A stretch of 64,000 nucleotides of DNA. Origin: Microcoleus sp. GTDB lineage: Bacteria; Cyanobacteriota; Cyanobacteriia; Cyanobacteriales; Microcoleaceae. Below, one piece after another: positions 196 through 15,663 of this stretch; position 1 is the stretch's first letter; every line of letters starts with the position of its first letter. A program made the position numbers and the translations under genes. Below the pieces are notes generated by a model. That model was given only the letters and a program-made list of their open reading frames with translations. It had not been told where the DNA came from and did no database searches. Location of the stretch: assembly GCA_042408215.1 (NCBI GenBank), contig JAYFMW010000017.1, positions 256,001 through 320,000 on the forward strand, written 5' to 3'.

Positions 196-1533
196 TTAAA
201 CTCTACCTCGAAGCATTTGGGCCATTTCGTTAGGAGATGGGGACTGTTCGAGACAAATCTCCTCGGTGACACGACCCTCTTGATATAGCCCGTAAAGACA
301 CTTATTCATCGTCGTCATACCCTCATAGGTATCCTTGATCATGATTTGGTTAATTTCTTCACTCTGCCCCTTCATGATGTATTCCTTAACCACGTCAGTA
401 TTGATCAGAATGTCGTGGTAGGCTGCCCGCTTGCCGTCTGTGGTTTTGCACAGCATTTGAGCGATGATTGCCAATAGAGATTCAGCCATCGAAACCCGTA
501 GAGCCGGTTGCTCTTCGGAATTGAACATATCCAGAATCCGGTTCAGGGTTTTGACAGCGCTGTTGGTGTGCAGCGTCCCCGCTACCAAGTGACCCGTTTG
601 GGCCGCTTTCAGGGCGATTTCCACTGTTTCTCTGTCGCGAATTTCCCCTACTAGCATCATGTCTGGGTCTTGTCGCAGGGCCCCTTTCAGGGCGTTGACA
701 AACTTGAGGGTGTGTCGGCCCACTTCCCGGTGCTTGATCAAAGATTTTTTACTGGTGTGTACAAATTCTACAGGGTCTTCAATCGTGATGATGTGGTGAG
801 AATTATTCTTGTTGATGTAGTCAATCATGGCGGCCATTGTGGTGGACTTACCGGAACCAGTCGGCCCTGTCACCAAAATTAGACCTTTGTGATAGCCACA
901 TATTTTCCGAAACACCTCCGGTAGCTTCAATTGCTCCATTGTCAAAATTTCGGCCGGGATGAGCCGCAATACCATAGCAGGGCCGGCCAAAGAGTCAAAG
1001 GCGCTGATCCGAATGCGGACGAAACCAAAGTCGAAAGCGCCGTCAAAGTCCAGGTTTTTCTGGAAGTAGGCAATTTCTTCATCAGTCATGCACTCCCGCA
1101 GCCAACCCATAAAGACATCTAAATCAGTCGTTGGATAACCCGCATCGGTAATCTCACCGCGTTTGCGGAAGCGGGGGATCTCATTTACTCCCAAGTGCAA
1201 GTCAGAAATGCCTTCTTCTTTGGCTCGCTGGACGAGCTGTCTCAAAGTCGGGTTTCCGTTGTTTTCTGAGCTTGAGCTGACGGGCGTGGCCAAGGATTGG
1301 GGGGCTGGTGCAGCAGTCGCCGGTGGCGCGGGGGGAGCCGCTGGTGCAGCAGTCGCCGCTGGTGCGGGGGGAGCCGCCGCTGGTGCGGGGGGAGCCGCTG
1401 GTGGTGCTGGTGGCGGTGCTGGTGGCGCTCCTGCTGCTCTGGGAATGCCTGGAGCTGGAGGGCGTGGCATACCTGGGGGTGGGGGAGCACCGGGTGCGGG
1501 GGGGCGGGGAGCTGGCGGTGGCTGTTGTGTCAT
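196..1533 (-). CDS. pilT: Type IV pilus retraction ATPase, PilT2-like, with Pro/Ala-rich N-terminal extension
   Basis: Walker A GPTGSGKST, TIEDPVE Asp box, LVGEIRD Walker B, TLHTN His box; Pro-rich N-terminus and no AIRNLIRE motif, as in cyanobacterial PilT2. Confidence 0.9.
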   Translation of the reverse strand: MTQQPPPAPRPPAPGAPPPPGMPRPPAPGIPRAAGAPPAPPPAPPAAPPAPAAAPPAPAATAAPAAPPAPPATAAPAPQSLATPVSSSSENNGNPTLRQLVQRAKEEGISDLHLGVNEIPRFRKRGEITDAGYPTTDLDVFMGWLRECMTDEEIAYFQKNLDFDGAFDFGFVRIRISAFDSLAGPAMVLRLIPAEILTMEQLKLPEVFRKICGYHKGLILVTGPTGSGKSTTMAAMIDYINKNNSHHIITIEDPVEFVHTSKKSLIKHREVGRHTLKFVNALKGALRQDPDMMLVGEIRDRETVEIALKAAQTGHLVAGTLHTNSAVKTLNRILDMFNSEEQPALRVSMAESLLAIIAQMLCKTTDGKRAAYHDILINTDVVKEYIMKGQSEEINQIMIKDTYEGMTTMNKCLYGLYQEGRVTEEICLEQSPSPNEMAQMLRGRV

Positions 1534-1971
1534 AAAAAAGTTCGGTATGTGGGAAACTCAGTGGCTTGAGCTTAGAGAGGGAAACGACACGAGTGGTTTT
1601 AACCACCGTGAATCTTTTTTGTCCATTACCGCCTTGGGATTACTTGATTCGGTGTACTTTTGTAATGTACTTTCAGTGGGACAATTACCATTTCAAATTT
1701 CGCAATCCTGTACGCATAATGGTTTGCTCTTTTATAGCCTCCCTTGCGGGGTAATGTTCGCTTCGACCTGGTTATAAAGGCTTGTGAGACCTGCAACACT
1801 GTTTCAGTGACTTTAAAACTGTTTAATTGCAGATGACAGAGCTCTTAACTAGCGTCGCATTCAGAGGTGTCGTGACCTAAATAACGTTTACCTATTACTA
1901 GGTGGTCTGGTCAGTACAGCTTGCTCGATTACTCTTACAAGCTCAGTCCCGGAGCGGGCTGAGTTACTGAC
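1534..1971 (-). mobile_element. Non-autonomous IS200/IS605 (IscB-type) element lacking an intact ORF
   Basis: Diverged homolog of 10821-11192; both follow TCAT and end in TGAC on the + strand; subterminal hairpins at both ends. Confidence 0.85.
1738..1971 (-). ncRNA. HEARO / IscB omegaRNA scaffold, copy 1
   Basis: Minus strand GTCAGTAACTCAGCCC..GGGACTGAGCTTG..TGACCAG..ACGTTA..GACACC..ATGC..CTAGT..GCTCTGTC..TTAAACAG..CAGTG..CGAAGC..CATTACCCCGCAAGGGAG follows HEARO motif order; stems covary with copy 2. Confidence 0.8.
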
Positions 1972-2267
1972 GCGCTACCTTAAAGTTGGCGAGCAGGCGG
2001 ACTCGCTCGGATGATTTGCGGAAGTCTGGGAATGCTGAACGCGATTGTGAGTGTCTTGCACAAAAGCTTAACTGTTGAAATTAGTCTATCTCAAGAGCGA
2101 GTCAAACTGCTGCACCTGAACGGGAATATTCTTCCCTTTGCCCAATGCGATCGCCATCAATATAGGATAAGTAATGGATTTTCTACGTCTCTTGAGATTT
2201 TTTTTAGGTTCAGAGTTTTCACCGATCAAAAAGTATAAATTGTTACCGCTATTTCTATTTTAAGGAA

Positions 2268-3677
2268 TTGGATCAAATGAATTCTGTTGATTGGGCTTTG
2301 ACTCCGGCTCTGGAATTGGCGAAGTCGATCCGCACTCTTGAGGTGTCGCCGATCGAACTTGTCAACCTGTACTTGGAACGGATCGATCGACTAAACCCTC
2401 AACTGGGCAGTTATTTTACCGTGACAGCCGATCGCGCGATCGCCCTGGCCAAATCCCAAACAGAGCAACTAGCTGGGTTAAACAAGCTGCAAGAATTGCC
2501 ACCTTTTTTCGGAGTTCCGATCGCCATTAAAGACTTGACACCAGTGACCGGCGTTCCCTGTACCTATGGCACCCAGGCTCTACAAGGCAATATCTCTGGC
2601 TACGACGAGTCAGTAGTATGGCGGATCAAAGCAGCAGGATTTAACATTCTGGGCAAAACCGCAACAGCTCAGATTGGCTCCTTACCCTACACCGAACCAG
2701 AAGGTTTCCCACCGGCGCGCAATCCCTGGAACCCAGATTACACAGCAGGAGGTTCCAGTGGAGGCTCAGCGGCGGCTGTAGCGGCGGGTTTATGCGCGAT
2801 CGCCCAGGGTTCAGACGGCGGCGGTTCAATTCGAGGTCCGGCATCCTGCTGCGGTTTAGTGGGCATTAAACCCTCGCGGGGGCGCGTTTCCTGGGCACCT
2901 GTGGGAGATTATCTGAGCGGCATTTCTGCCAACGGCCCGATCGCTCGCACAGTGGCCGATGCGGCTGCACTTTTAGATGTAATGTCAGGCTACACAACCG
3001 GCGATCCCTACTGGCTCCCAGATCCAAATCCCACGTTTCTAGAGGCTGCAAGTCAAAAGTTGGGCAAGCTGCGAATTGCTTTTTCTACCGCTGTTTTCCC
3101 TGTGGGCGAGGCATCGCCTGTGTGTCAGCAAGCGGTACTCGATACCGTAAAATTACTGACTGATTTGGGTCACGATGTAGAACCTGGATGCCCGGATTTT
3201 ACAGGTTTGATCGAGCCGTTTACGGCAATTTGGCAGTCTGGGGCGGCAGCCAGTGGAATTCCGGCACCTGCTTTGGAACCGATGAATCGCTGGCTGTTGG
3301 AAAGAACTATTTCGGCTGGGGAGTATTTGCGGGCTGTGAATCAAATGCAGGTGATTTCGCGGCGGATTGTGGGATTTTTTCAGAATTTTGACCTGTTAGT
3401 TTTGCCGACTTATATGCACTCGCCAATTCGGATTGGTGAGTGGGCGGATTTGAGTTGTGAAGAAACTTTGGCTAATATTGTGAATTGGATTGCTCCATGT
3501 CCACCGTTTAATGCTAGTGGCCAACCGGCGATCGCACTTCCTGCGATTTTAGATTCTCATGGTTTGCCGGTGGGAATTCAAATTATCGGCCGGCCAGCGG
3601 CGGAAGCAACTTTAATTGCTTTGGCGGCGCAGATGGAAGCAGCAAAACCTTTTCCGATTTTAAATTTTGACAGCTAA
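2268..3677 (+). CDS. Amidase signature family protein
   Basis: GVPIAIKD, GGSSGGSAAAV, GSDGGGSIRGPA motifs. Confidence 0.92.
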   Translation: MDQMNSVDWALTPALELAKSIRTLEVSPIELVNLYLERIDRLNPQLGSYFTVTADRAIALAKSQTEQLAGLNKLQELPPFFGVPIAIKDLTPVTGVPCTYGTQALQGNISGYDESVVWRIKAAGFNILGKTATAQIGSLPYTEPEGFPPARNPWNPDYTAGGSSGGSAAAVAAGLCAIAQGSDGGGSIRGPASCCGLVGIKPSRGRVSWAPVGDYLSGISANGPIARTVADAAALLDVMSGYTTGDPYWLPDPNPTFLEAASQKLGKLRIAFSTAVFPVGEASPVCQQAVLDTVKLLTDLGHDVEPGCPDFTGLIEPFTAIWQSGAAASGIPAPALEPMNRWLLERTISAGEYLRAVNQMQVISRRIVGFFQNFDLLVLPTYMHSPIRIGEWADLSCEETLANIVNWIAPCPPFNASGQPAIALPAILDSHGLPVGIQIIGRPAAEATLIALAAQMEAAKPFPILNFDS

Positions 3678-3692
3678 TAATGTAATTTAACC

Positions 3693-4154
3693 ATGATTAT
3701 CAATCCTGAAAATGTGCCGAATAGTATCGGATCGAATTATCCTCAGCAATTCAAATCTGCTGTTTCGGGAAGAGTCAAAAAACGATTGGGCGATGCTGCG
3801 GGATTGAAGAATTTTGGCGTAAATTTAGTGCGGCTTGCACCGGGAAGTTGTTCTGCTCTCAGACACTGGCATACTTGTCAAGATGAGTTAATCTATGTTC
3901 TGGAAGGGGATGTTTCTTTGGTCACGAATTCGGGAGAGCAAGTGCTAAAACCGGGCATGGTGGCTGGTTTTCCGGCTGGTGATGCAGATGGGCATCATTT
4001 AGTCAATCGCACGAATTCAGATGTTGTTTATCTGGAAATTGGCGCTCGCACTTTGGGCGATGAAGTCACTTATCCCGATGATGACTTAATTGCCAAATTT
4101 ATCGGGAACAATTGGATATTTGGACACAAAAACGGCGATATTTATGAGGATTAA
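3693..4154 (+). CDS. Cupin domain protein
   Basis: HWH..DELIYVLEG and GFPAG..GHHL cupin motifs. Confidence 0.88.
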   Translation: MIINPENVPNSIGSNYPQQFKSAVSGRVKKRLGDAAGLKNFGVNLVRLAPGSCSALRHWHTCQDELIYVLEGDVSLVTNSGEQVLKPGMVAGFPAGDADGHHLVNRTNSDVVYLEIGARTLGDEVTYPDDDLIAKFIGNNWIFGHKNGDIYED

Positions 4155-4160
4155 AAAATT

Positions 4161-4820
4161 ATGAGTCAAGTCAATCTTTGGACTTCGGCGGAACACGCTT
4201 TGTGGTATCTCGCTAAAGCCGATAGTATCCCCCACCGCACGGAAGGTGAAGCTGTACTTTTGGGGGAAGTTCCGAAAAATGTCAAGCGGATTCTGGATGT
4301 GGGTACGGGAGATGGGCGTTTGTTGGGTTTGCTTAAGTGCGATCGGCCAAATGTTCAAAGTGTGGCGATCGACTTTTCGCCTACAATGTTGGAAAAAGTC
4401 AGAACTCGTTTTGCTGAAGACCAAAATGTCACAATAATCGAACATAATTTTGATGACTCGTTGCCGGATTTGGGCAAGTTTGATGCGGTTGTTTCTAGTT
4501 TTGCCATACACCATGTAGAGGACGATCGCAAACGTTCCCTTTACGCCGAGATTTTCAACCTCTTAGAACCGGGAGGCATCTTTTGCAATTTAGAGCACGT
4601 CGCTTCAGCAACTCCGGCTTTGCATCAGAAATTTCGAGAAGCACTTGGTATTAGCGATAGACCAGACGATCCGTCTAATAAATTGCTCGATGTCGAAACA
4701 CAATTGCGCTGGTTTAGAGAAATTGGTTTTACCGATGCAGATTGTTATTGGAAGTGGCGGGAACTAGCTTTGTTAGTTGGGGTGAAACCTGTTGACAAAA
4801 ATTTACCTAAACCTTCTTAA
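4161..4820 (+). CDS. Class I SAM-dependent methyltransferase
   Basis: ILDVGTGDG motif I, DFSPTML, FDAVVSSFAIHH, LEPGG. Confidence 0.9.
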   Translation: MSQVNLWTSAEHALWYLAKADSIPHRTEGEAVLLGEVPKNVKRILDVGTGDGRLLGLLKCDRPNVQSVAIDFSPTMLEKVRTRFAEDQNVTIIEHNFDDSLPDLGKFDAVVSSFAIHHVEDDRKRSLYAEIFNLLEPGGIFCNLEHVASATPALHQKFREALGISDRPDDPSNKLLDVETQLRWFREIGFTDADCYWKWRELALLVGVKPVDKNLPKPS

Positions 4821-4902
4821 ATCTCTCCAAAGACTACGCTATAATAGCTAGATGAGTAAGTAGCCCAGCTCTCAAGAAATCGCTCAAAAACTGTTACCAG
4901 AT

Positions 4903-5118
4903 ATGTACGCCATCAAGCTTGAAATCAAACTTACAGCAATTCCCGCTGTTATGAAACACGGTAGGGACACGGCAATGCCGTGTCCCTAGGAGGATTGAAC
5001 GATAAGTGAGTGTACCTCATAACAGCGGTTTCCGCTGTAATAACAAGGAACGTACCTTGATGGCGCGACATTCTGGCAAGACCAAGATTTTGCTACAATT
5101 ACGCCTTAGCCCTCTATC
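4903..5118 (+). pseudogene. tnpB 5' relic (N-terminal HTH) interrupted by a MITE
   Basis: Removing 4934-5037 plus one TA gives MYAIKLEIKLNNKERTLMARHSG, then RFCYNYALALY after a frameshift; resembles TnpB/OrfB N-termini. Confidence 0.7.
4934..5037. mobile_element. TA-flanked MITE with internal GTAGGGACACGGCAATGCCGTGTCCCTA REP-like hairpin
   Basis: Imperfect terminal inverted repeats CAGC..CGCTGTTATGA / TCATAACAGCG..GCTG; TA on both sides. Confidence 0.75.
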
Positions 5119-5875
5119 ATATCAATTCCGGTTGCACTCAGAGATGATTGTTGACGGTTGACGTTTGACCGTTGACAGTTAACAGTTAACAGTTAACAGT
5201 TAACAGTTAACTGTTGACCGTTGACAGTTAACAGTTAACTCAAATTTACTATTCCGATGAAGAGAGGATTTGAGATCGAGGAGCTAAAGACTTTCCTGGT
5301 AGTAGTAGCAAAATAATAGTACGGTTCACGATCAGACATGGACTGAGAAACTGTTATAAAGATTACCTATTGGGGGTCTGCTAATTTTTGACTTAGGCTT
5401 TTTAAACTTTACTTGGTTTGATGCCGAAAACTTTTTCAGAACGAGGATGAGAAATAAAATAGCTGAGAAAGTTACTGGTATCTTGTCGAGTGGAACTCTA
5501 TAAAGATGAGAAGATCAAAATGGGTAAGTACCGCTCGAATCCCTGTAACCATTAGGTTCGGTTAGTATCTGTGCTATGGGGAAAAACTTGGTACTATAGC
5601 CTTTCTCAGTAACAGTGTGGTGCACGCTTGATATAGGGCATAGGGGATTGGGCATAGGGCATAGGGCATAGGGCATCGGCTTGTACCTCATGGGGTTGAA
5701 AACCGCTAGATCCACCCGGTCACGAAAGCGGCCCCCCCTGAGCGAAGCGTTGGACGCTCGCCCAAGGACTACGCTCAGGATCAACTCCGCCGAAGTGTCG
5801 AACGGGTAGCCGAAGTGTTCCGAGAAACCGGGTTTTTTTGGCCTTAGTCCCTAAACTAATCAGCCGGACATGATA

Positions 5876-7312
5876 TCACTCGTCGGCAGTTAAAACTGAA
5901 TCTGGCTGCTGCGGATTGCTGTAAAAACTAGCAATAATTGCCACCATCAACCACCAGAGCATATTGACTTCCGGCCTATACCAAACAGTATCGACAAAAC
6001 CGTGGGCCATCATGCCGGCTAAAGTTGCGATCGCCCCAATCAACCAAAACCCCTGATTCGATTGGAGATTTGGATAGTTTTCGGTCAAGTTAGAACTGCT
6101 AAATTGCGCGTCACGCAATCTTTTGATTTGCAACAAACCTTGATTTACTGTTACTGTCAGCAGCCACAGAAAACAACTCAAACCGATAAAACCTGTTTCT
6201 ACGGCAATTTCTAGCAGCACTGAATAAGCGCTCAAAGCAGTGAACTTCGGCTTCATATAAAGCGGATAAACTTTATTAAAGGCAGTGTTTCCGGGGCCAA
6301 TTCCGAGAATTGGTCGATCGCGAATCATGTCAATCACCGCTGTCCAAACATTAATCCGAAAATTGTTACTGCTGTCGCCGCGGCCGATAAACATACTGGA
6401 AACTCGATCGCGCACGGGTTCCACCAAAGCCACTCCCAAAATTAACGCCCCAGCCAAACCTCCTAACCCTAACGGTAGAGCCCATTGCCGCCAAAACTTG
6501 GGCATCAAAGGATTGTACCAATACCACAGCAGCACTAAAAACACCACAAGTAAAGCTACAAAACCAATCCAAGCGCCCCTGCTGTCGGTGTAGCGCAAAC
6601 AGGCGCAATTCACCACCAACATCGTCAGCGCCAAAGCTCTAGTTGCCGATCCCTTCCACACAAAAAGTGCGGCTGCGCTGAATGCAATTGCTGGTAGCAG
6701 ATAGGAACCAAGCAGGTTGGGATTACCTAAAAAGCTGTAAACCCGCGTGACATTGGCTTGAGTAGAAGTTGGATCGTTCCAAGTAGCCAGCGGTGGCACT
6801 TTATCGATCCACTGTCGCACGCCGTAGAAACTGACGATGAGAGCGACGTTCAAATACACGGCGATTAACCACGAGCGTAAACGGGGCGATCGCAATATCC
6901 TCGCCATTAGCCCAAAAAACAGCAAATACAGCGTCAACTTCGTCCAGCCGGTAAAAGCGGCCGCCTTTACCGGAGACATCGCGGTTGCTACCGTCGCAAT
7001 GCCCCAGTAGAGCATTACCAGCAGGTGAATGGGTGTCAGGGCGATCGCGCGATCGTCCGAAACAGTCAGCAGCACCCAAAAAGCAGCACAAGCCGCCATC
7101 AACACACCCACTAGGGCATTGTTGACAAAGGGGCCTAAGCCAAACGTCAAAGCAAGCAAAACAAAACCTAGCGGTTCCGCCCACTGCATTAGCCAGCTAC
7201 TCTGCCGCCAACTTCGCGCATTGCCGATCGCTACATTCAATAAATAACTTCCACTTTGCCACTGTAAGAGCGGCAAATTTGTCAGAGTTAACTGTTGCCA
7301 AACTGAATTCAT
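5876..7312 (-). CDS. ictB: IctB family membrane protein (O-antigen ligase-like)
   Basis: MNSVWQQLTL start, RVYSFLGNPNLL, SRGAW, DSSNNFRINVW, GIGPGN, DTVWYRP; start set at the internal Met. Confidence 0.9.
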   Translation of the reverse strand: MNSVWQQLTLTNLPLLQWQSGSYLLNVAIGNARSWRQSSWLMQWAEPLGFVLLALTFGLGPFVNNALVGVLMAACAAFWVLLTVSDDRAIALTPIHLLVMLYWGIATVATAMSPVKAAAFTGWTKLTLYLLFFGLMARILRSPRLRSWLIAVYLNVALIVSFYGVRQWIDKVPPLATWNDPTSTQANVTRVYSFLGNPNLLGSYLLPAIAFSAAALFVWKGSATRALALTMLVVNCACLRYTDSRGAWIGFVALLVVFLVLLWYWYNPLMPKFWRQWALPLGLGGLAGALILGVALVEPVRDRVSSMFIGRGDSSNNFRINVWTAVIDMIRDRPILGIGPGNTAFNKVYPLYMKPKFTALSAYSVLLEIAVETGFIGLSCFLWLLTVTVNQGLLQIKRLRDAQFSSSNLTENYPNLQSNQGFWLIGAIATLAGMMAHGFVDTVWYRPEVNMLWWLMVAIIASFYSNPQQPDSVLTADE

Positions 7313-7579
7313 TTCAATTTTTATGGTAATTGGTAATGGGGAATTGGGCATCTGTAATATCATGTCCGGTTAATCAGTTATCATTCGAGTGCGAGCGTCC
7401 CGCTCGCGAGCGAGACGCTCGCACTCCGAAATAAATATAAGCGATCGCCCGGACTTGATATAATTGGTAATCGGTAATCGGTTATTGGAAGTTAGAACAA
7501 CAAATAACCACTAACAAATAACCACTAACAAATAACCACTAACTAATGACTAATGACTAATGACTAATGACTTCTTCCT

Positions 7580-8473
7580 TCATCCTTCCAACAACTCCGT
7601 AGCATTTGTGCAGGGGAGCCAGAGCAGGTAGCGATACCCTGATTCCGGCGATCCTTGAATCGAGAGTTGGCCGCCTTGAATTTCCACCAACTGGCAGCTC
7701 ATGAGCAGCCCCAAACGTTCCCTATCCCCGTAGCCAGCTAACAGCGGTGCAGTATCCGCCGCCTGAGCCGCCATCGAGGCCGCCAACTCTGAGAAGGAAA
7801 GGGTTAATCGTTCTTGATTCTGTGCCGACAGAGGTAGTGGCGATCCGAGTCCGAGTTCCCTGTTGTCCGAGTTCGATTCTGAACTCTGACCCGATCGGGC
7901 TTTCCACAAGTAGTCGGAGTAGAGTTTAGCATGGGGCAAACTTTCTCCCAACCAAGGGTGAAAAACCCAAACTCCGATGTTGATTCCGTCTTCTTTCCGA
8001 GAAACGTGCACTCGAATTACGCTACCAGCCCCAGCAGATTGAATGACACTAAAAATTAAGTGGTGTAGCATTTGCTGAACTTTATCCTTATCCGCCAGCC
8101 AAATCCGCGGACCGGGGCCCATAGACAGGTTAATTTCTTGCTCTCGTCTAGAAGCTGGCTGCAACAGGGTAGTCACTACCTGCTGGCACAAAGTTTCTAT
8201 ATCGACGGCGCTCCGCTTTAGGGTGAAACTGGATTCATGCAATTCTGTGAGTTCCAAAATTTCTTCGACTAGCGATCGCAAAGACCGGCTGCTGTCTTGG
8301 ATCACGTCGATATATTCTTTTTGCTTGCTCGTTAGGGGCCCGTAAATTTCTTGGCTCAACACACTTGCCATGCCCATAACTGAAGTGAGCGGGGTGAGCA
8401 ATTCTTGCGCCAAATAATTCAGCAGTTTTACCTTAATTGAGTTAGTAGACAAATCGATCGGTTTGTTAGTCAT
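7580..8473 (-). CDS. HisKA/HATPase-like protein with the phospho-acceptor His replaced by Gln
   Basis: LAQELLTPLTSV H-box variant; ADKDKVQQMLHHL N-box; degenerate G boxes; no sensor domain. Confidence 0.75.
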   Translation of the reverse strand: MTNKPIDLSTNSIKVKLLNYLAQELLTPLTSVMGMASVLSQEIYGPLTSKQKEYIDVIQDSSRSLRSLVEEILELTELHESSFTLKRSAVDIETLCQQVVTTLLQPASRREQEINLSMGPGPRIWLADKDKVQQMLHHLIFSVIQSAGAGSVIRVHVSRKEDGINIGVWVFHPWLGESLPHAKLYSDYLWKARSGQSSESNSDNRELGLGSPLPLSAQNQERLTLSFSELAASMAAQAADTAPLLAGYGDRERLGLLMSCQLVEIQGGQLSIQGSPESGYRYLLWLPCTNATELLEG

Positions 8474-8659
8474 TGGTGATTTTTATGGCTTTATTATCGA
8501 TCGTTTATTGTTAGGGGTTTATTCGACCTCTTTCCCAAGTCTATAACAACTTGTTTGCAGTTGCAGACATCAGTCTTTTTTTTTCTAACTATTCTAGGTC
8601 GAGGGTGCTTAGGTTGCACCCTACCTCTGTTCATTTTGTTTGTTTAGCTCGAAATTAAC

Positions 8660-9086
8660 CAATCACCAATTCCCAATTCCTAATTCCCAATTCCCAATTC
8701 CCAATACTTCGGCGTAGTTGCTCCTGAGCCCTTCGGCTACGCTCAGGAGCAACGCAGTCGTTGGGCGGTTCCTGAACCCTTCGACGCAGTTTACCCGCTC
8801 GCGAATTCGAAGGGCTCAGGGGCCACGTAGTCGAAGGGCAGTACAAGTTCCCAATTCCCAATTCCCCATTCCCAATTCCCCATTCCCAATTCCCAATTCC
8901 CAATTCCCAATTCCCCATTCCCCATTCCCAATTCCCAATTCCCAATTCCCAATTCCCCATTCCCAATTCCCAATTCCCAATTCCCCATTCCCCATTCCCA
9001 ATTCCCAAGTCCCAATGCCCAATTCCCAATGCCCAATTCCCAATTCCCAATTCCCAATTCCCAATTCCCAATTCCCAATTCCCAAT
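8660..9086. repeat. STRR heptamer array (CCCAATT/CCCCATT) with an embedded REP-like palindrome cluster at about 8707-8840
   Basis: Dozens of tandem heptamers; embedded CTGAGCCCTTCGGCTACGCTCAGG-type hairpins. Confidence 0.9.
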
Positions 9087-9088
9087 GA

Positions 9089-10531
9089 CTAATTAATCAT
9101 TCCTTCTAAAGCTGATTGTAAGTCTTGAGTGAGTTCGGCAACTGCTAACCTGCGGCTGCTTTGATATCCTTCCCAGCGATCGTCCACTGATATTGGCTCA
9201 CCCACGGTCATTTTTACTTGCTGTTTGCCCAAATTCGGTCGCCCGAAAGGATTTCCCCCTTTGATGCGAGCAAGTACGTCCCACAGCAGTAAAGTTGTTT
9301 CTGCTAGCCGTTCTGCGGTCAGCTTTTCTTGCACATACCTGCCGGTAACGGACACAAAACTTTCTACGAGTCTCATGTGCCACATCCGGAGACTTGCTTC
9401 TTCGGCGAGTCGATCGGCTAATCCTCTTTCTAAGGGACAAAGCGCTGCAATATCTTTGATATCTTCTCGATAAATATAGTCCCAACCTGCTTGTTCCAAA
9501 CGGCGACAGCGGTCTATCAAACTGCCTTTTGGCTTCAAGTTGAAATACTCTTCTGCTACAAGTAGTGCCACGTCTAAAAGTGCTTGCAACCGATCGTTCA
9601 TAACTTGTTCTTTTTCCGAATCTCCTGCTGTTGCCTTGGGGATTTCCACGGGTATCGAAACAGAGATTTTTGGCGGTAATTTTTGATGGTAAAAACGGGT
9701 ATAAAACTGCTCCATTACTTCTAGTAAATGGCTGCCCAATCGAATTAGGCGCATATATTGGAAGTTGTGATTTGGGTCTTGTGAACCTAAAATCTTCCTC
9801 GAAAAATTGGCGTTATTGCTACTATCCAATGGTGGCAATCCGCAATCTGCTTCTAATTGAGTTAAAAGTTGTTTTAGGGGTTCCCAAGGTGGCTGGACAT
9901 AGCGGTATTGAATGCCGATCGGCACAATTAACACTTTTTCATTTCTGTCAGCTTTACGCAGATCTTCAACGCACCAGAAGCCCATTTGAGCAATCCCTGG
10001 TTCGAGGGGGCTCACTATTTCATTGTGACCGTTGGTGGCACCTTCTGGGGCGGCGGCGATCGGGAATTTGCTATTAGCAAATAAATCGCGGGCCGATCGC
10101 AATCCAGCTCGATCGATCTTACCGCGAACGATCGGAGTGCCGCCGAGGTGGGAATACAGCCAGCCGACGCCCGCACCAGCCCAGAGGGGAATGCCGCGAT
10201 CGTAAATAAAGTGCGAATGTACGGGGAATTGCAGGGGAATGCCTTGTTGCCGCGCTGAAGCAGGAACCAGTTTCCAAACCAGTTGTCCCAAACAGTAGGG
10301 ATCCTCTGAGTTGGGGTGGCGGAAGGCTAGCAGGAAGCGAACTTTCTGATTTTGAAATTGGTGAAAGAGTTCGGCGAGGGTTTCGACGTTTTCGGCTTGA
10401 ATGTCGCTGATACTTGTCCGAAATCGCAGCCACCAGGGGAGCAATTGCTGACAGCCAAGCACTACTAGGGGGTTGTAGGCTGGGGGTATGAATTCTAGCG
10501 GCGGCTGAACTTGGCTAATTGAATTGGGCAT
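9089..10531 (-). CDS. Cyanobacterial phospholipid/glycerol acyltransferase (PlsC superfamily)
   Basis: HxxxxD motif (RHPNSED), [13 protein letters not shown]. Confidence 0.85.
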
Positions 10532-10820
10532 TTGCGATTTGAGATTTGCGATTTGAGATTACTCGCCTGCGGTAAAAATTTCTGATTTTTACTTTTTTGC
10601 TATTCTAATAGATACCCGACTTCTTAAAGAAGTCGGGTATCTGGGTATTCTGTTTTTTTAGATGCGCCTCAGCTTATTAACCACAGAGGACACAGAGGAC
10701 GCAGAGGAAAAGAGGAAGAAAGAAGATGGATAATTTTACAGCCTGAAGTCAGCAATTTTTCCCCAATCCTAAATCTCAAATCCCAAATCTCAAATCCTAT
10801 TGTGCGGCTTGAAAAATCAT

Positions 10821-11192
10821 AAAAAAAACTCGGTAAGTGGGAAACTCAGAGGCTTGAGCCTAGAGAGGAAAACAGCTCGGCGGTTTCAACCGCGTTGAAT
10901 CCCCAAAAGGGGTTGGAGGGGTATGGTTGCCCCTCCTTTCGAGGTATGGTTGCCTCGGTCTCCCTTGCGGGGTGATGTTAGCTTCGCCAAGGTTATAAGG
11001 GCTTGCGCCGGCTTGCAGCACTATCTCTGTTACCTTAAGACTGTTTAACCGCAAGCGACAGAGCAAGGGACTAGCTTCGCATCCACAGGGTGTCGTGACC
11101 CAAATAACGTAGTCAATGAAGACGATAGCTGGTCAGCATAACTTGCTCAATTACTCTTACAAGCTCAGTCCCTTTAGGGCTGGGTTGCTGAC
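10821..11192 (-). mobile_element. Non-autonomous IS200/IS605 (IscB-type) element inserted in the 3' end of rnb
   Basis: Homolog of 1534-1971 with the same TCAT|..TGAC junctions; precise removal restores an in-frame rnb C-terminus. Confidence 0.85.
10960..11192 (-). ncRNA. HEARO / IscB omegaRNA scaffold, copy 2
   Basis: Minus strand GTCAGCAACCCAGCCCTAAAGGGACTGAGCTTG..TGACCAG..ACGTTA..GACACC..GGATGC..CTAGTCC..GCTCTGTC..TTAAACAG..CCCCGCAAGGGAG. Confidence 0.8.
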
Positions 11193-13175
11193 TTCTTGGA
11201 AATGAACTGCGTCCGATCGCGGATCGCAGTGCGTGACTTTGACTTCTAGTCGATCGCCTATTTCGATCGATCGACCAAATCGCATGGCTAATTCTAACCC
11301 CAATTCTTCCAACAAAATCAATCCCACATTACTGTCTTCCCGTAGCCAGCGCAGCATTAAAGCCTCCCAGACTTCATCCGGGTTGCGCCGCAAATATTCC
11401 AATCCCCAATAGCGGTTGGTTTGACGTTCAACGCTAGAGGCTTCTCTGACTGCGGTGCCGAGACACATGACTATTTCCTGCATTTCTTCAGCACAAAAAG
11501 GCAACGGTTCGCCTCGCAAGTGAGCTTTGATTTGAAAGTGAGTCAGCAAGTCGGTATAGCGGCGGATCGGAGAAGTAACTTGAGTGTATGCTTCCAAACC
11601 CAAACTCGAGTGCCTTCCGGGGGTCAGACCCATTTCGCTGCGGGGCATACAGCGACGCACGGCGCAAGCCCGGGCTGGCCCGGCGGGCACAGCTAGCAGT
11701 TCTTCTTCGGGAGGAAGTTCTGGCTGGGGCTGATAGCGGTAGGGTATGGGTAGGCTGTGAACCTGACCGTAACGCGCTGCGAGTTCCCCAGCTAAAATCA
11801 TCATTTCGGCTACTAGCAATCGGGCTGTGGAGTCGTCGATGACGTGGATTTTGATGTCGTCGCCGTTGACTTTGATGACGGATTCGGGCATGAAAATGCT
11901 GATGGCGCCTTGGGTTTCTCGCCATTTTTGTCGCAGTTTTGCCAAATCCGCGATCGCACCTATTTCCGGTTCTGCTTCGATTCCCAACTCCAACATCTCG
12001 TCTACATCATCGTAGGTTAAGCGGTAGGTAGGTTTCACCGTGCTGATATGAATGCTGTAATCTTGGAATGCACCAGCTTCATCTAAGATCACACTAAAGC
12101 TGAGAGCGCTGCACTCTTGACCTTGATTTAAGCTCATCGGCCCGGTTGCCAATTCTGGGGGAAACATTGGTATCATCCCCGTGGGCAGGTAAACTGTGGT
12201 GGTGCGCTTTCTGGCTTCGAGGTCGAGTTCGTCTCCGGGGGAGAGTAAGCGAGTCGGATCGGCGATGTGTATCCACAGGCGCTGCTGGCCGTTTTCGAGG
12301 AATTCTAAGCTCAGCCCGTCGTCTATTTCGGTAGTGCTTTCGTCGTCGATCGTGTAAACCTTGAGGTGAGTTAAATCTAGACGACTGGTTTCGGAGTCCC
12401 TTGGGGGATTTTCTAGGCAGCGTTGCGCCACTTCTAATACCTTGGCGGATAGTTGTAGGGGAATTTGGCTACGCCGCAAAAACAGGTTTTCGTGGTGACT
12501 CCACAAGTCGAGATCGACTAAGAGTTGAAAGGCTGCTTCGGGTGTTTCGGGACGTTCTAAGCTGGCTAAAGTTTCTAGGGCTGGGGTGCGGTGTGTTGCT
12601 TCTTCTCCGATGGTCGCAAATCGTTCTAGGGCGTCGAGGCGAGTTCGATCGCTATTTGCCCAATCTACTTTTTCTCCTGCTAGTCGCTGCTTGACTCGAT
12701 CCCAAAATCCTTGGGATTCTTGGTGTCGCTGCTGTTCTACTTCTTGCTGGTGTTTGATTTCGGCTACTTGGGCGACGGAACGCGGTTCGTATCGATCGCC
12801 CTTTTGTTTGAAATACAGTTTATCTGTTGACAGCAAACAATAAGCTGCGTAGCACTGAGCGGAACTTTTCTCGGAAAATAGCAGCACTGCTAAGGATTCC
12901 GGGTCTGCGGTTTCTCCGTCCCCGACTAGCAGTTCCCAAGCTACCTCAAGACTCGAAGGATCTGAGTAAACTTCTACTTCTTTGAGAAATTTTGGAATGT
13001 CGGAGGGTTTGTAGGTTTCTCCGGCTATTTCGTAGGTGATTTGTTTAGGCGGTATGCTGTGCGGTTGACTGTTTTCGTCTACCAACACCCAGTTTTTTTT
13101 GCCGTCGGGGCGATCGGCAACGGCTAGACGGCGGTCGCCGTGCAGTCTAAATTCTACTAAGGTTCCCTTGTCCAC
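11157..13175 (-). CDS. rnb: Ribonuclease II/R family exoribonuclease
   Basis: TIDDESTTEIDDGLS, IHIADP, LVAEMMILA, TSPIRRYTDL; start set at GTG of VDKGTLVEF; last 11 aa come from the inserted element. Confidence 0.92.
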   Translation of the reverse strand: MDKGTLVEFRLHGDRRLAVADRPDGKKNWVLVDENSQPHSIPPKQITYEIAGETYKPSDIPKFLKEVEVYSDPSSLEVAWELLVGDGETADPESLAVLLFSEKSSAQCYAAYCLLSTDKLYFKQKGDRYEPRSVAQVAEIKHQQEVEQQRHQESQGFWDRVKQRLAGEKVDWANSDRTRLDALERFATIGEEATHRTPALETLASLERPETPEAAFQLLVDLDLWSHHENLFLRRSQIPLQLSAKVLEVAQRCLENPPRDSETSRLDLTHLKVYTIDDESTTEIDDGLSLEFLENGQQRLWIHIADPTRLLSPGDELDLEARKRTTTVYLPTGMIPMFPPELATGPMSLNQGQECSALSFSVILDEAGAFQDYSIHISTVKPTYRLTYDDVDEMLELGIEAEPEIGAIADLAKLRQKWRETQGAISIFMPESVIKVNGDDIKIHVIDDSTARLLVAEMMILAGELAARYGQVHSLPIPYRYQPQPELPPEEELLAVPAGPARACAVRRCMPRSEMGLTPGRHSSLGLEAYTQVTSPIRRYTDLLTHFQIKAHLRGEPLPFCAEEMQEIVMCLGTAVREASSVERQTNRYWGLEYLRRNPDEVWEALMLRWLREDSNVGLILLEELGLELAMRFGRSIEIGDRLEVKVTHCDPRSDAVHFQEVSNPALKGLSL

Positions 13176-13350
13176 TTGCCAGTTGTATATTTTATATTTT
13201 AGATTTTTACATTTGCCACTTGTCAAGTTTTGAGTTTGGGATTTTAGATTTTGGAGACTTGTATTTTTTCTGGTTAAATCACGTAAAAACGTTACTTTCG
13301 CCTAGCTTTTATGACCGTCCAAAATCTAAAATCTAAAATCCAAAATCCAG

Positions 13351-13566
13351 TTAACCTTCTTGGTTTACGAAGGGCATCAAAGCTACAATTCTTGCTCTTT
13401 TGATGCTTCTGGTCAGGTCTCGTTGCTGTTTTGCTGTCAAGCCTGTAATCCGCCTGGGCAGGATTTTACCCCGTTCTGTGACATATTTTTTGAGCAAATC
13501 GACATCTTTGTAGTCGATCGGATCTCCTGGTTTAATTGGCGAAACACGCCTGCGAAAGTAAGTCAT
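13351..13566 (-). CDS. rpsR: 30S ribosomal protein S18
   Basis: [35 protein letters not shown]; upstream ORF extension is STRR repeat. Confidence 0.97.
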
Positions 13567-13726
13567 GGTTTTTGGGTAATTGGTAATTGGGCATTGGGCA
13601 TTGGGCATTGGGCATTGGGCATTGGGCATTGGGCATTGGGCATTGGTTACTGGTAGCTCATCACAAATAACAAATAACTAATGACTAATGACTACTGACT
13701 AATGACTCATGACTAATGACTCATGA

Positions 13727-14848: not shown

Positions 14849-15136
14849 TTAATAAACTTCATCATGGCTTCCAATATCAACCAATAGAATGACCATTTCT
14901 AATAATTCCTCATCTTCAGAAAAAATAAAAATTATTCTGCAATCGTAAGCAACAGAACAAGACCATAATCCTGCCAAGTCCCCTCCTAACTTGTGAGACT
15001 TCAAAGATGGCGTAAATGGATCATCTGCCAAACGCCTTAACACCTTAGTAATTTGCTCCTTTAATTGTGGATTTTTCTTTGTAATCTTCTTGAAAGACCG
15101 ATTAAATCCACTACTCCAGACAACTTCCATCATCAT
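14849..15136 (-). CDS. Type II TA toxin, RelE/YafQ family
   Basis: F.RSFKK..LKSHKLGGDLAGLWSCSVAYDCRIIF..DIGSHDEVY. Confidence 0.9.
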   Translation of the reverse strand: MMMEVVWSSGFNRSFKKITKKNPQLKEQITKVLRRLADDPFTPSLKSHKLGGDLAGLWSCSVAYDCRIIFIFSEDEELLEMVILLVDIGSHDEVY

Positions 15137-15341
15137 CTCCTAGTAAATCTGCGATCAAATCATCAACGGTTCCCCTCTTTGCTGTCCCATTCTTAAAAGC
15201 TTCCATCACTTCCTGAGCATTAGCCAAAATTTCAGCCCGCCGATTTTCAATCCGTCGCTTGCGGATTAACTCAAACAACTGATCCTGATCTTCTATTGAT
15301 AAACTTTCCACTTGATCGATAATTTCTTGTAAAGTCATCAT
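15111..15341 (-). CDS. Putative cognate antitoxin
   Basis: Small protein with acidic C-terminus, upstream of and overlapping the toxin. Confidence 0.7.
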   Translation of the reverse strand: MMTLQEIIDQVESLSIEDQDQLFELIRKRRIENRRAEILANAQEVMEAFKNGTAKRGTVDDLIADLLGDDDGSCLE

Positions 15342-15379
15342 ACAGACTCCTCTAAAGTAAAATTGACTAAAGATTACGC

Positions 15380-15663
15380 CTAGGCCAAAACCCGATTCTT
15401 AATCAAACGGCTTAATCCCTGTTCCGTCACAATATCTACCTTACAACCTAGCATATCTTGCAAATCCATCCATAGTCCCCCTGGGAACCAAGGCGAAATT
15501 TTCTGTAAATCATAATCCACCAACAGATCAATATCACTACTCTCAGTCTCCTCACCCCGCCGCCCACCGAACCAAACACCCACAAATTAAACGCCCCATG
15601 TCGCAGCGCCACTGCCAGAATATCCTCGCGCTTGGATTGTAATAACTGTTGTAACTTCATCAT
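15380..15663 (-). pseudogene. Minimal nucleotidyltransferase (MNT), frameshifted
   Basis: Frame 1 gives KREDILAVALRHGA..VFGS; frame 2 gives RGEETESSDIDLLV..LQDMLGCKVDIV; shift near 15565. Confidence 0.8.

What the first reader, a model, noticed from the sequence alone, without database searches (positions are those of the whole stretch)
1534..11192. Two ORF-less HEARO/omegaRNA elements with identical ATGA target motif, each in the sense orientation of a host gene
Seen: 1534-1971 and 10821-11192 are diverged homologs. Both start right after TCAT and end at TGAC on the + strand, share ~230 nt of structured sequence with compensatory stems (CTGCAA..TTGCAG versus CTTGCGG..CTGCAAG), and share an ~80-nt opposite end, while their middles differ. 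Established: this motif order matches the HEARO/omegaRNA of IscB elements, whose guide is the 5' flank and whose TAM lies 3' of the target; standalone omegaRNAs are known. Inference: these are guide-only elements that borrow IscB/TnpA in trans. Host transcription would produce guides against their own empty alleles, giving a possible homing system in a polyploid genome.
Basis: partly seen in the sequence, partly recalled or inferred. Interest (0 to 1): 0.78.

Follow-up and report, generated by a model that had tools for sequence, protein, structure and literature searches.

The report
Guide-RNA mini-transposons parked on start codons
Both stretches are protein-less mobile elements of a known kind that carry the guide-RNA scaffold of the Cas9 ancestor IscB and likely borrow their enzymes from other copies; three quarters of their family in this genome sit directly in front of host start codons, and one of the two carries an uncatalogued, predicted RNA fold where the lost gene was.

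Summary
Both elements match Rfam HEARO far above cut-off, run from GTCA to ATGA, and have empty alleles in relatives. The genome holds 70 HEARO matches, two intact-looking IscB genes with the same ends, and a TnpA with a similar left end and the ATGA target. What I did not find in print (8 searches): 35 of 46 family members sit on or next to host start codons (rpsP, rplS, chlB, petL, petM, pilT), against 7% of all ATGA sites and 21% of tolerated ones. TnpB-type elements with the same target do so less (6 of 19), but they are younger. All 42 ORF-less copies carry a substitute module: a 120-nt covarying fold with no Rfam match (element 1; once also in a group II intron) or hairpins with one fixed loop (element 2). 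The scan reported start-codon docking and the fold before, on other DNA. Verdict: new variant of a known kind.

The parts
1534..1971 (-). Element 1: 438-nt ORF-less IS200/IS605-type element (GTCA end to ATGA target)
1751..1971 (-). HEARO/omegaRNA scaffold of element 1
   Evidence: RF02033, 126.9 bits
1624..1743 (-). Module M2: 120-nt conserved, covarying predicted RNA fold in the slot of the lost iscB; no Rfam family
   Evidence: no Rfam match
1534..1615 (-). Left end of element 1 (type A), two hairpins and a T-run, shared with iscB- and tnpA-bearing elements
1530..1533 (-). ATGA target; its ATG is the start codon of pilT
196..1533 (-). PilT/PilU-family ATPase gene, 445 aa, intact
   Evidence: TIGR01420
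1972..1991 (-). Predicted guide of element 1: native pilT leader with an SD-like AAGG, 2 nt shorter than in empty alleles
   Evidence: guide role inferred from Meers et al.
10821..11192 (-). Element 2: 372-nt ORF-less element of the same family
10972..11192 (-). HEARO/omegaRNA scaffold of element 2
   Evidence: RF02033, 132.7 bits
10915..10958 (-). Module M1: two tandem hairpins with the same 8-nt loop CAACCAUA
10821..10900 (-). Left end of element 2 (type A)
10797..10820 (-). Orphaned native tail of the RNase II/R gene (MIFQAAQ, stop); begins with the ATGA target
   Evidence: G005 allele ends HFQEMIFQAAQ
11157..13226 (-). RNase II/R-family gene; its last 11 codons and stop now come from element 2
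11193..11212 (-). Predicted guide of element 2 (coding sequence); in register with the empty allele of G005
   Evidence: guide role inferred

Best explanation
Both are protein-less IS200/IS605-family elements carrying an IscB guide-RNA scaffold, inserted just before an ATGA, which are likely moved by a TnpA and served by an IscB encoded elsewhere in the genome, and which likely pile up on start codons because there the host promoter would transcribe a guide while the gene stays whole. Steps. (1) Shown: insertion 5' of ATGA, no duplication, mostly precise. (2) Shown: insertions in the body of genes are missing from this family; element 2 is tolerated because it swaps only 7 terminal residues. 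No sign of splicing. (3) Inferred: transcription through the host leader (element 1) or coding end (element 2) makes guide plus scaffold; IscB in trans cuts the scar left by TnpA excision and recombination with a filled chromosome restores the copy. (4) Inferred: the host gene is translated from a read-through or processed transcript whose new 5' context is the U-rich left end. (5) Inferred: modules M1 and M2 replace the ORF and act at RNA level, for stability, 3' processing or read-through.
For: HEARO matches. 70 copies, 25 with iscB directly downstream. ORF-less copies score as high as iscB-linked ones (median 126.9 vs 133.1 bits, P 0.87). Two 423-aa IscB with the same ends pass NF040563; a 135-aa TnpA, in two identical copies, passes NF033573 and has a similar left end followed by ATGA. 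35 of 46 mapped family members are start-like, against 3576 of 50012 ATGA sites (7.2%) and 20.8% of non-disruptive sites (P 1.5e-15). TnpB-type elements with A/B ends and ATGA, whose guide needs no host promoter, 6 of 19 (Fisher P 0.0015). The same start codons carry different elements in other genomes: pilT (G017, G018), rplS, psb27, DUF1816, CPP1-like. Relatives: 20 of 22 mapped ends open a coding-length ORF (several are the same site). M2: 14 of 28 pairs with two-sided changes, 0 of 500 shuffles reach it. Published: guide from the 5' flank, sense bias, retention (Meers passages); N|ATGA target in Microcystis (Kapitonov passages).
Against: No expression, loading, cleavage or homing was tested. 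Age confounds the control: 14 of 19 TnpB-type copies have a sibling at 99-100%, while most HEARO copies are 80-95%; a younger iscB family with ATGA is 6 of 12 start-like with 2 inside called genes, and G133 is 9 of 19 with one in-frame insertion inside a gene. Element 1's guide is out of register with relatives' empty alleles. A/B ends give no Shine-Dalgarno pairing (6 of 46 ends vs 16 of 46 native flanks below -4 kcal; element 1 -0.1 vs -4.0), so how pilT is translated is open. M2 plus left end persists at some sites without a scaffold (L307, L309), and bare left ends remain at hisG and other starts, which needs no guide. No co-conversion tract. Gene calls are from my own dicodon caller.
Confidence: 0.55

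Rival explanations
1. Passive survivors: the elements are real PATEs but their guides do little; copies on start codons last longest because most deletions there would damage translation of the gene, while intergenic copies erode.
For: Start enrichment rises with apparent age: 32% (TnpB-type, young), 47-50% (G133; young iscB family), 76% (diverged family). Bare left ends and scaffold-less remnants remain at start codons.
Against: Scaffolds of ORF-less copies keep full HEARO scores despite up to 20-30% divergence; M2, found only in ORF-less elements among the loci read, covaries strongly; precise TnpA excision would remove a copy without harm.
Confidence: 0.25
2. Targeting: the TnpA itself prefers ATGA in translation-start or promoter-proximal DNA, for example AT-rich or single-stranded DNA, so the bias exists at insertion.
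For: The same start codons are hit repeatedly by different elements; even TnpB-type copies are at 32%, above the 21% of tolerated sites (P 0.19, not significant).
Against: TnpB-type elements with the same ends and target are mostly intergenic, 13 of 19.
Confidence: 0.1
3. Domestication: the elements, through M1/M2 or IscB binding, now regulate or stabilise the host mRNAs and are kept for the host's benefit.
For: M2 is conserved across genera and recurs in unrelated ORF-less mobile RNAs, including a group II intron; many host genes are central (rpsP, rplS, chlB, petL, petM).
Against: Each site is filled in few genomes (RNase II site 2 of 30); host genes share no function; ends stay intact and near-identical sister copies exist (H1/H2, H45/H48 98%).
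Confidence: 0.1

Closest known systems
Standalone omegaRNAs / PATEs of IS200/IS605 elements (Meers et al., bioRxiv 10.1101/2023.03.14.532601; PMC10691335)
   Same: Protein-less, hairpin ends, omegaRNA at the right end, guide from the 5' flank, enzymes in trans, same orientation as a host gene; GstIscB TAM written TTCAT, that is ATGAA on the other strand (passages).
   Different: The passages read do not mention start-codon docking or a substitute RNA module; Meers measured orientation to the upstream gene, whereas here the downstream gene's own leader is the guide and the upstream gene is often divergent.
ISC transposons with N|ATGA target, such as ISC1-1_MA and IS605B-1_MA of Microcystis (Kapitonov 2016, PMC4810608)
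   Same: 5' GTCA end, insertion upstream of ATGA without duplication, ends shared with TnpB-type IS605 elements (passages).
   Different: Those encode IscB/IsrB or TnpB; these encode nothing.
HEARO RNA, Rfam RF02033
   Same: Full-length match far above cut-off.
   Different: No ORF follows; M1 or M2 follows instead.
IStrons (group I intron plus IS200/IS605 or IS607 element)
   Same: Mobile omegaRNA elements living inside host transcripts (review passage).
   Different: No intron family matches; the family avoids gene bodies and element 2 rewrites the protein tail, so no splicing is indicated.

Membership tests
HEARO / IscB omegaRNA (RF02033) | Covariance-model match above gathering score over the full model | tested here: met
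   126.9 and 132.7 bits vs 83, positions 1-211
HEARO / IscB omegaRNA (RF02033) | iscB ORF directly downstream | tested here: not met
   No RRXRR match at either element; no significant IscB remnant in the middles (best E 0.013, in the scaffold tail). They are standalone copies.
HEARO / IscB omegaRNA (RF02033) | RNA is made, loads on IscB and guides cleavage next to a TAM | not testable with these tools
   Only assembled contigs were available
Non-autonomous IS200/IS605 element (PATE) | Subterminal hairpins at both ends, no terminal inverted repeats, no coding gene | tested here: met
   CTCAG..CTGAG-type hairpins at both ends
Non-autonomous IS200/IS605 element (PATE) | Fixed short target, insertion without target duplication, empty alleles | tested here: met
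   ATGA follows the left end in an unconstrained profile search. Element 2 precise; G017/G018 pilT insertions precise; 7 of 10 comparable relative junctions precise, 1 with +1 nt, 2 unclear; element 1 is 2 nt short.
Non-autonomous IS200/IS605 element (PATE) | A Y1 TnpA with matching ends in the genome | tested here: met
   C13:77171-77515 and C30:360795-361139, NF033573, type-A-like left end then ATGA; matching is by sequence likeness only
Non-autonomous IS200/IS605 element (PATE) | Excision and insertion by that TnpA | not testable with these tools
   needs an excision assay
[quoted passage not shown] | Guide matches the empty site in register with the TAM | tested here: inconclusive
   Met for element 2 against G005; for element 1 only against its own scar
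IStron | Self-splicing intron covering the element, tolerated inside coding sequence | tested here: not met
   No intron match; none of 46 family copies in a gene body
Catalogued ribozyme or riboswitch (for module M2) | Match to an Rfam family | tested here: not met
   No match at E up to 5 on element 1; one chance hit at E 5.6 in 8 other copies

The most novel reading that the evidence does not exclude
Start codons are a niche of their own for ATGA-targeting OMEGA elements: each copy turns a host gene's leader into its guide, and a new portable RNA module (M2, or the M1 hairpins) that fills the lost-gene slot of IscB-type elements, divergent HEARO-like elements and a group II intron actively makes this harmless, for instance by cleaving or protecting the transcript so that a mature guide RNA and a translatable mRNA both result.
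Probability: 0.3. Interest if true: 0.8.

Novelty: new variant of a known kind. Interest (0 to 1): 0.52.

Why it matters
If true, a selfish element can sit in front of ribosomal and photosynthesis genes without splicing, and dozens of host leaders per genome feed a shared pool of IscB guides. That gives a testable answer to the stated open question of what standalone omegaRNAs do (PMC10691335 passage), a natural case of translation after loss of the native leader, and an uncatalogued structured RNA worth a cleavage and stability assay.

Tried and rejected
Splicing or excision joints: none skipped the whole element in contigs of 4 runs laid on element 1 or 4 on element 2 (one run laid nothing). 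One RNA-library contig (X16, 11153-11700) crosses the gene-element junction of element 2; contigs cannot show transcription, so this is not counted. Homing tract: differences next to the junction are no lower for filled G008 than for empty G005 (3 and 5 vs 3 and 4 per 200 nt). Wider TnpB control: 30 loci mostly did not reach the left end, and 20 of the 29 copies of the G037 burst target ATAA; dropped. Middles as iscB remnants: no significant match. Promoter and terminator scans: at chance level. Guides aimed elsewhere in the genome: 1 of 46 has a 14-nt plus ATGA match (H16; not followed up). M2 as hammerhead, twister or hairpin ribozyme: compared by eye with recalled consensus features, rejected (no Rfam match; the stretch that looks like hairpin loop B is base-paired and varies). 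A supplied ribosome-binding site: rejected for A/B ends, plausible for the D end (-10.3 kcal; anti-SD recalled). Rows left out: 24 of 70 HEARO matches had no A/B/C end (21 iscB-linked, 12 of them scored apart as family D; 3 ORF-less); 3 doubtful TTGAC calls and 1 broken element were dropped from the control, and adding them gives 7 of 20 or 9 of 23, P 0.002-0.004. Weinberg 2009 and Altae-Tran 2021 are not held; nothing of them or their supplements was seen, and they may mention start codons.
Full report
Observation. Both match Rfam HEARO on the - strand over the whole model, 126.9 and 132.7 bits against a cut-off of 83. They share 233 nt at 75.7% and about 80 nt at 81% at the far end. Element 1 lies between the leader and the ATG of a PilT/PilU-family gene; element 2 lies eight codons before the stop of an RNase II/R-family gene and replaces 7 residues by 11. 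The host is a cyanobacterium, inferred from photosynthesis genes.

Empty alleles. Of 30 RNase II loci fetched (of 40 genomes with a match), 28 are empty and 2 (G000, G008) filled; G005 gives a precise junction. Of 19 same-genus pilT loci, 11 are empty where the junction could be read, G000 and G008 carry this element, G017 and G018 carry a different HEARO element with another left end at the same site, and the rest were cut short or not read. All empty alleles have AT before ATGA; G017 and G018 keep it, G000 lacks it. The G008 match runs without a length difference, and contigs of three DNA runs cross the junction without a gap. So the predicted guide of element 1 fits only its own excision scar.

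Family and helpers. G000 has 70 HEARO matches, 64 over cut-off, 25 with an RRXRR domain directly behind, and 20 Y1 transposase matches. Ends were mapped for 46 copies of the GTCAG-type family, 42 ORF-less and 4 with iscB. Two of my three end patterns required ATGA, but the profile search did not, and it shows ATGA after nearly every type-A end. Two family members encode 423-aa IscB proteins that pass NF040563 with RuvC and HNH motifs intact by eye and match solved IscB chains. A 135-aa TnpA passing NF033573 stands in two identical IS605 copies with a similar left end followed by ATGA; its tnpB is split. Use in trans is inferred from these shared ends.

Start-codon docking. With a self-trained gene caller, 34 of 46 junctions were start-like, and petL makes 35. 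One of them, H5, is an in-frame ATG four codons into its gene. Only element 2 has a long open frame running in from upstream, so these are not split genes. Of the 35 downstream ORFs scanned, 31 match Pfam and 19 match from their first 14 residues; they include rpsP, rplS, chlB, petL, petM and psb27. Background: 3576 of 50012 ATGA sites (7.2%) are start-like, or 20.8% of sites that would not break a gene (P 1.5e-15). TnpB-type elements with A/B left ends and ATGA are at 6 of 19 (Fisher P 0.0015). Against a simple reading: 14 of those 19 have a near-identical sibling, a young iscB family with ATGA is at 6 of 12 with two copies inside called genes, and G133, of another family, is at 9 of 19 mapped ends among 23 of its 24 copies, one inside a gene. 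Enrichment thus grows with apparent age. In loci picked by the M2 model, mostly the best per genome, 20 of 22 mapped ends (28 loci) open a coding-length ORF, several at the same gene. Different elements occupy the same start in different genomes: pilT, rplS, psb27, DUF1816, the CPP1-like gene; psbD and hemA recur too (psbD and hemA named from recalled N-termini).

What fills the gene slot. All 42 ORF-less copies carry one of two modules: 20 M2 and 22 M1. M2 (window 1624-1743) is predicted to fold into nested helices with a three-way junction; in 29 sequences 14 of 28 pairs change on both sides, 96% of cells pair, no shuffle of 500 reaches this and slid controls give 33-43%. The structure was derived from these sequences and they are related, so the shuffle count is not a probability; a second set fitted to the model gave 23 of 28. 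No Rfam family matches. A model finds 22 copies in G000, in 24 of 24 same-genus genomes and 3 of 16 other families, and in 16 of 151 genomes across the phylum. It follows canonical scaffolds, divergent HEARO-like ones (weak matches; IsrB type not tested), sometimes no scaffold, and in G028 it lies about 70 nt before domains V-VI of a group II intron of about 900 nt, a single case. M1 is one or two hairpins with the loop CAACCAUA; 28 of 32 such hairpins in the genome lie in HEARO elements. Function of both is untested.

Mechanism. Most likely TnpA inserts before ATGA, selection removes insertions in gene bodies, and copies in transcribed leaders are kept because the host promoter would make their guide and IscB would restore them after excision (0.55). 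Passive survival (0.25), transposase preference (0.1) and domestication (0.1) remain. A/B ends supply no Shine-Dalgarno pairing, so translation of pilT from the new context is unexplained. Sequencing data were contigs only and decide nothing.

What is known. I read passages only: Kapitonov 2016 (PMC4810608: N|ATGA targets, shared ends), Meers et al. (bioRxiv 10.1101/2023.03.14.532601: PATEs with omegaRNAs, sense bias, retention), PMC10691335 and PMC9581776 (standalone omegaRNAs work in trans), PMC13565253 and PMC9755519. Term searches for 'start codon' in four of them found no docking statement. Eight library searches, seen as listings, showed no paper on start-codon docking or M2. Weinberg 2009 and Altae-Tran 2021 were not held and no supplements were read. 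Earlier notes of this scan, on other pieces of this genome and other genomes, report both docking and the module (one search found none); I reached both before those look-ups, they are not independent support, and one such note is marked as partly fallen.

Verdict. The start-codon niche and the substitute RNA modules make it a new variant. Interest 0.52.

Noticed in passing
G000 C6:923550, C20:689448, C14:104256, C8:73284, C6:765727: Bare left ends with no scaffold sit directly before ATGA, at hisG and other likely starts; in relatives two of these sites hold full elements (L253/L254, L247), so they look like decay remnants kept as leaders.
   Followed up: partly
G000 family D iscB elements, e.g. 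C17:395607-397195, C20:209296-210900: A second, younger IscB family also targets ATGA; its left end ends in a purine run that pairs strongly with the anti-SD (-10.3 kcal), so it may supply a ribosome-binding site; 6 of 12 are start-like.
   Followed up: partly
L256:1350-2265 (G028): Group II intron of about 900 nt (RF00029 match), too short for a reverse transcriptase gene, at the end of a gene, with module M2 shortly before domain V.
   Followed up: partly
window 11124-11127 and orthologous copies H13, H57: At three separate loci G000 differs from G005/G008 by the same 4-nt block at element positions 66-69; differences come in patches, as from gene conversion among copies.
   Followed up: no
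G000 H1, H5, H46, H57: Four elements carry two left ends in tandem (type B then type C), and M1/M2 combine freely with A and B ends: the family is mosaic.
   Followed up: no
L303-L306, L310, L312, L313: Divergent HEARO-like scaffolds (36-39 bits or no match) plus M2 and a type-B end also stand before ATG-opened frames that read like rfbA, cysA and plsX starts (names recalled).
   Followed up: no
G037 C1, about 29 copies: A burst of near-identical TnpB elements; the 20 examined all target ATAA.
   Followed up: partly
window 8718-9090 and 13560-13660: Short tandem repeats of the GGGAATT and GGGCATT type between genes, usual in filamentous cyanobacteria (recalled).
   Followed up: no
window 14849-15663: Small toxin-antitoxin-like gene cluster (RelE-like, partner, nucleotidyltransferase-like pieces, the last apparently frameshifted); judged from translations only.
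   Followed up: no
L011 (G001), pilT leader: An unrelated insertion of about 420 nt lies some 35 nt upstream of the pilT start, so this leader is hit by other elements too.
   Followed up: no
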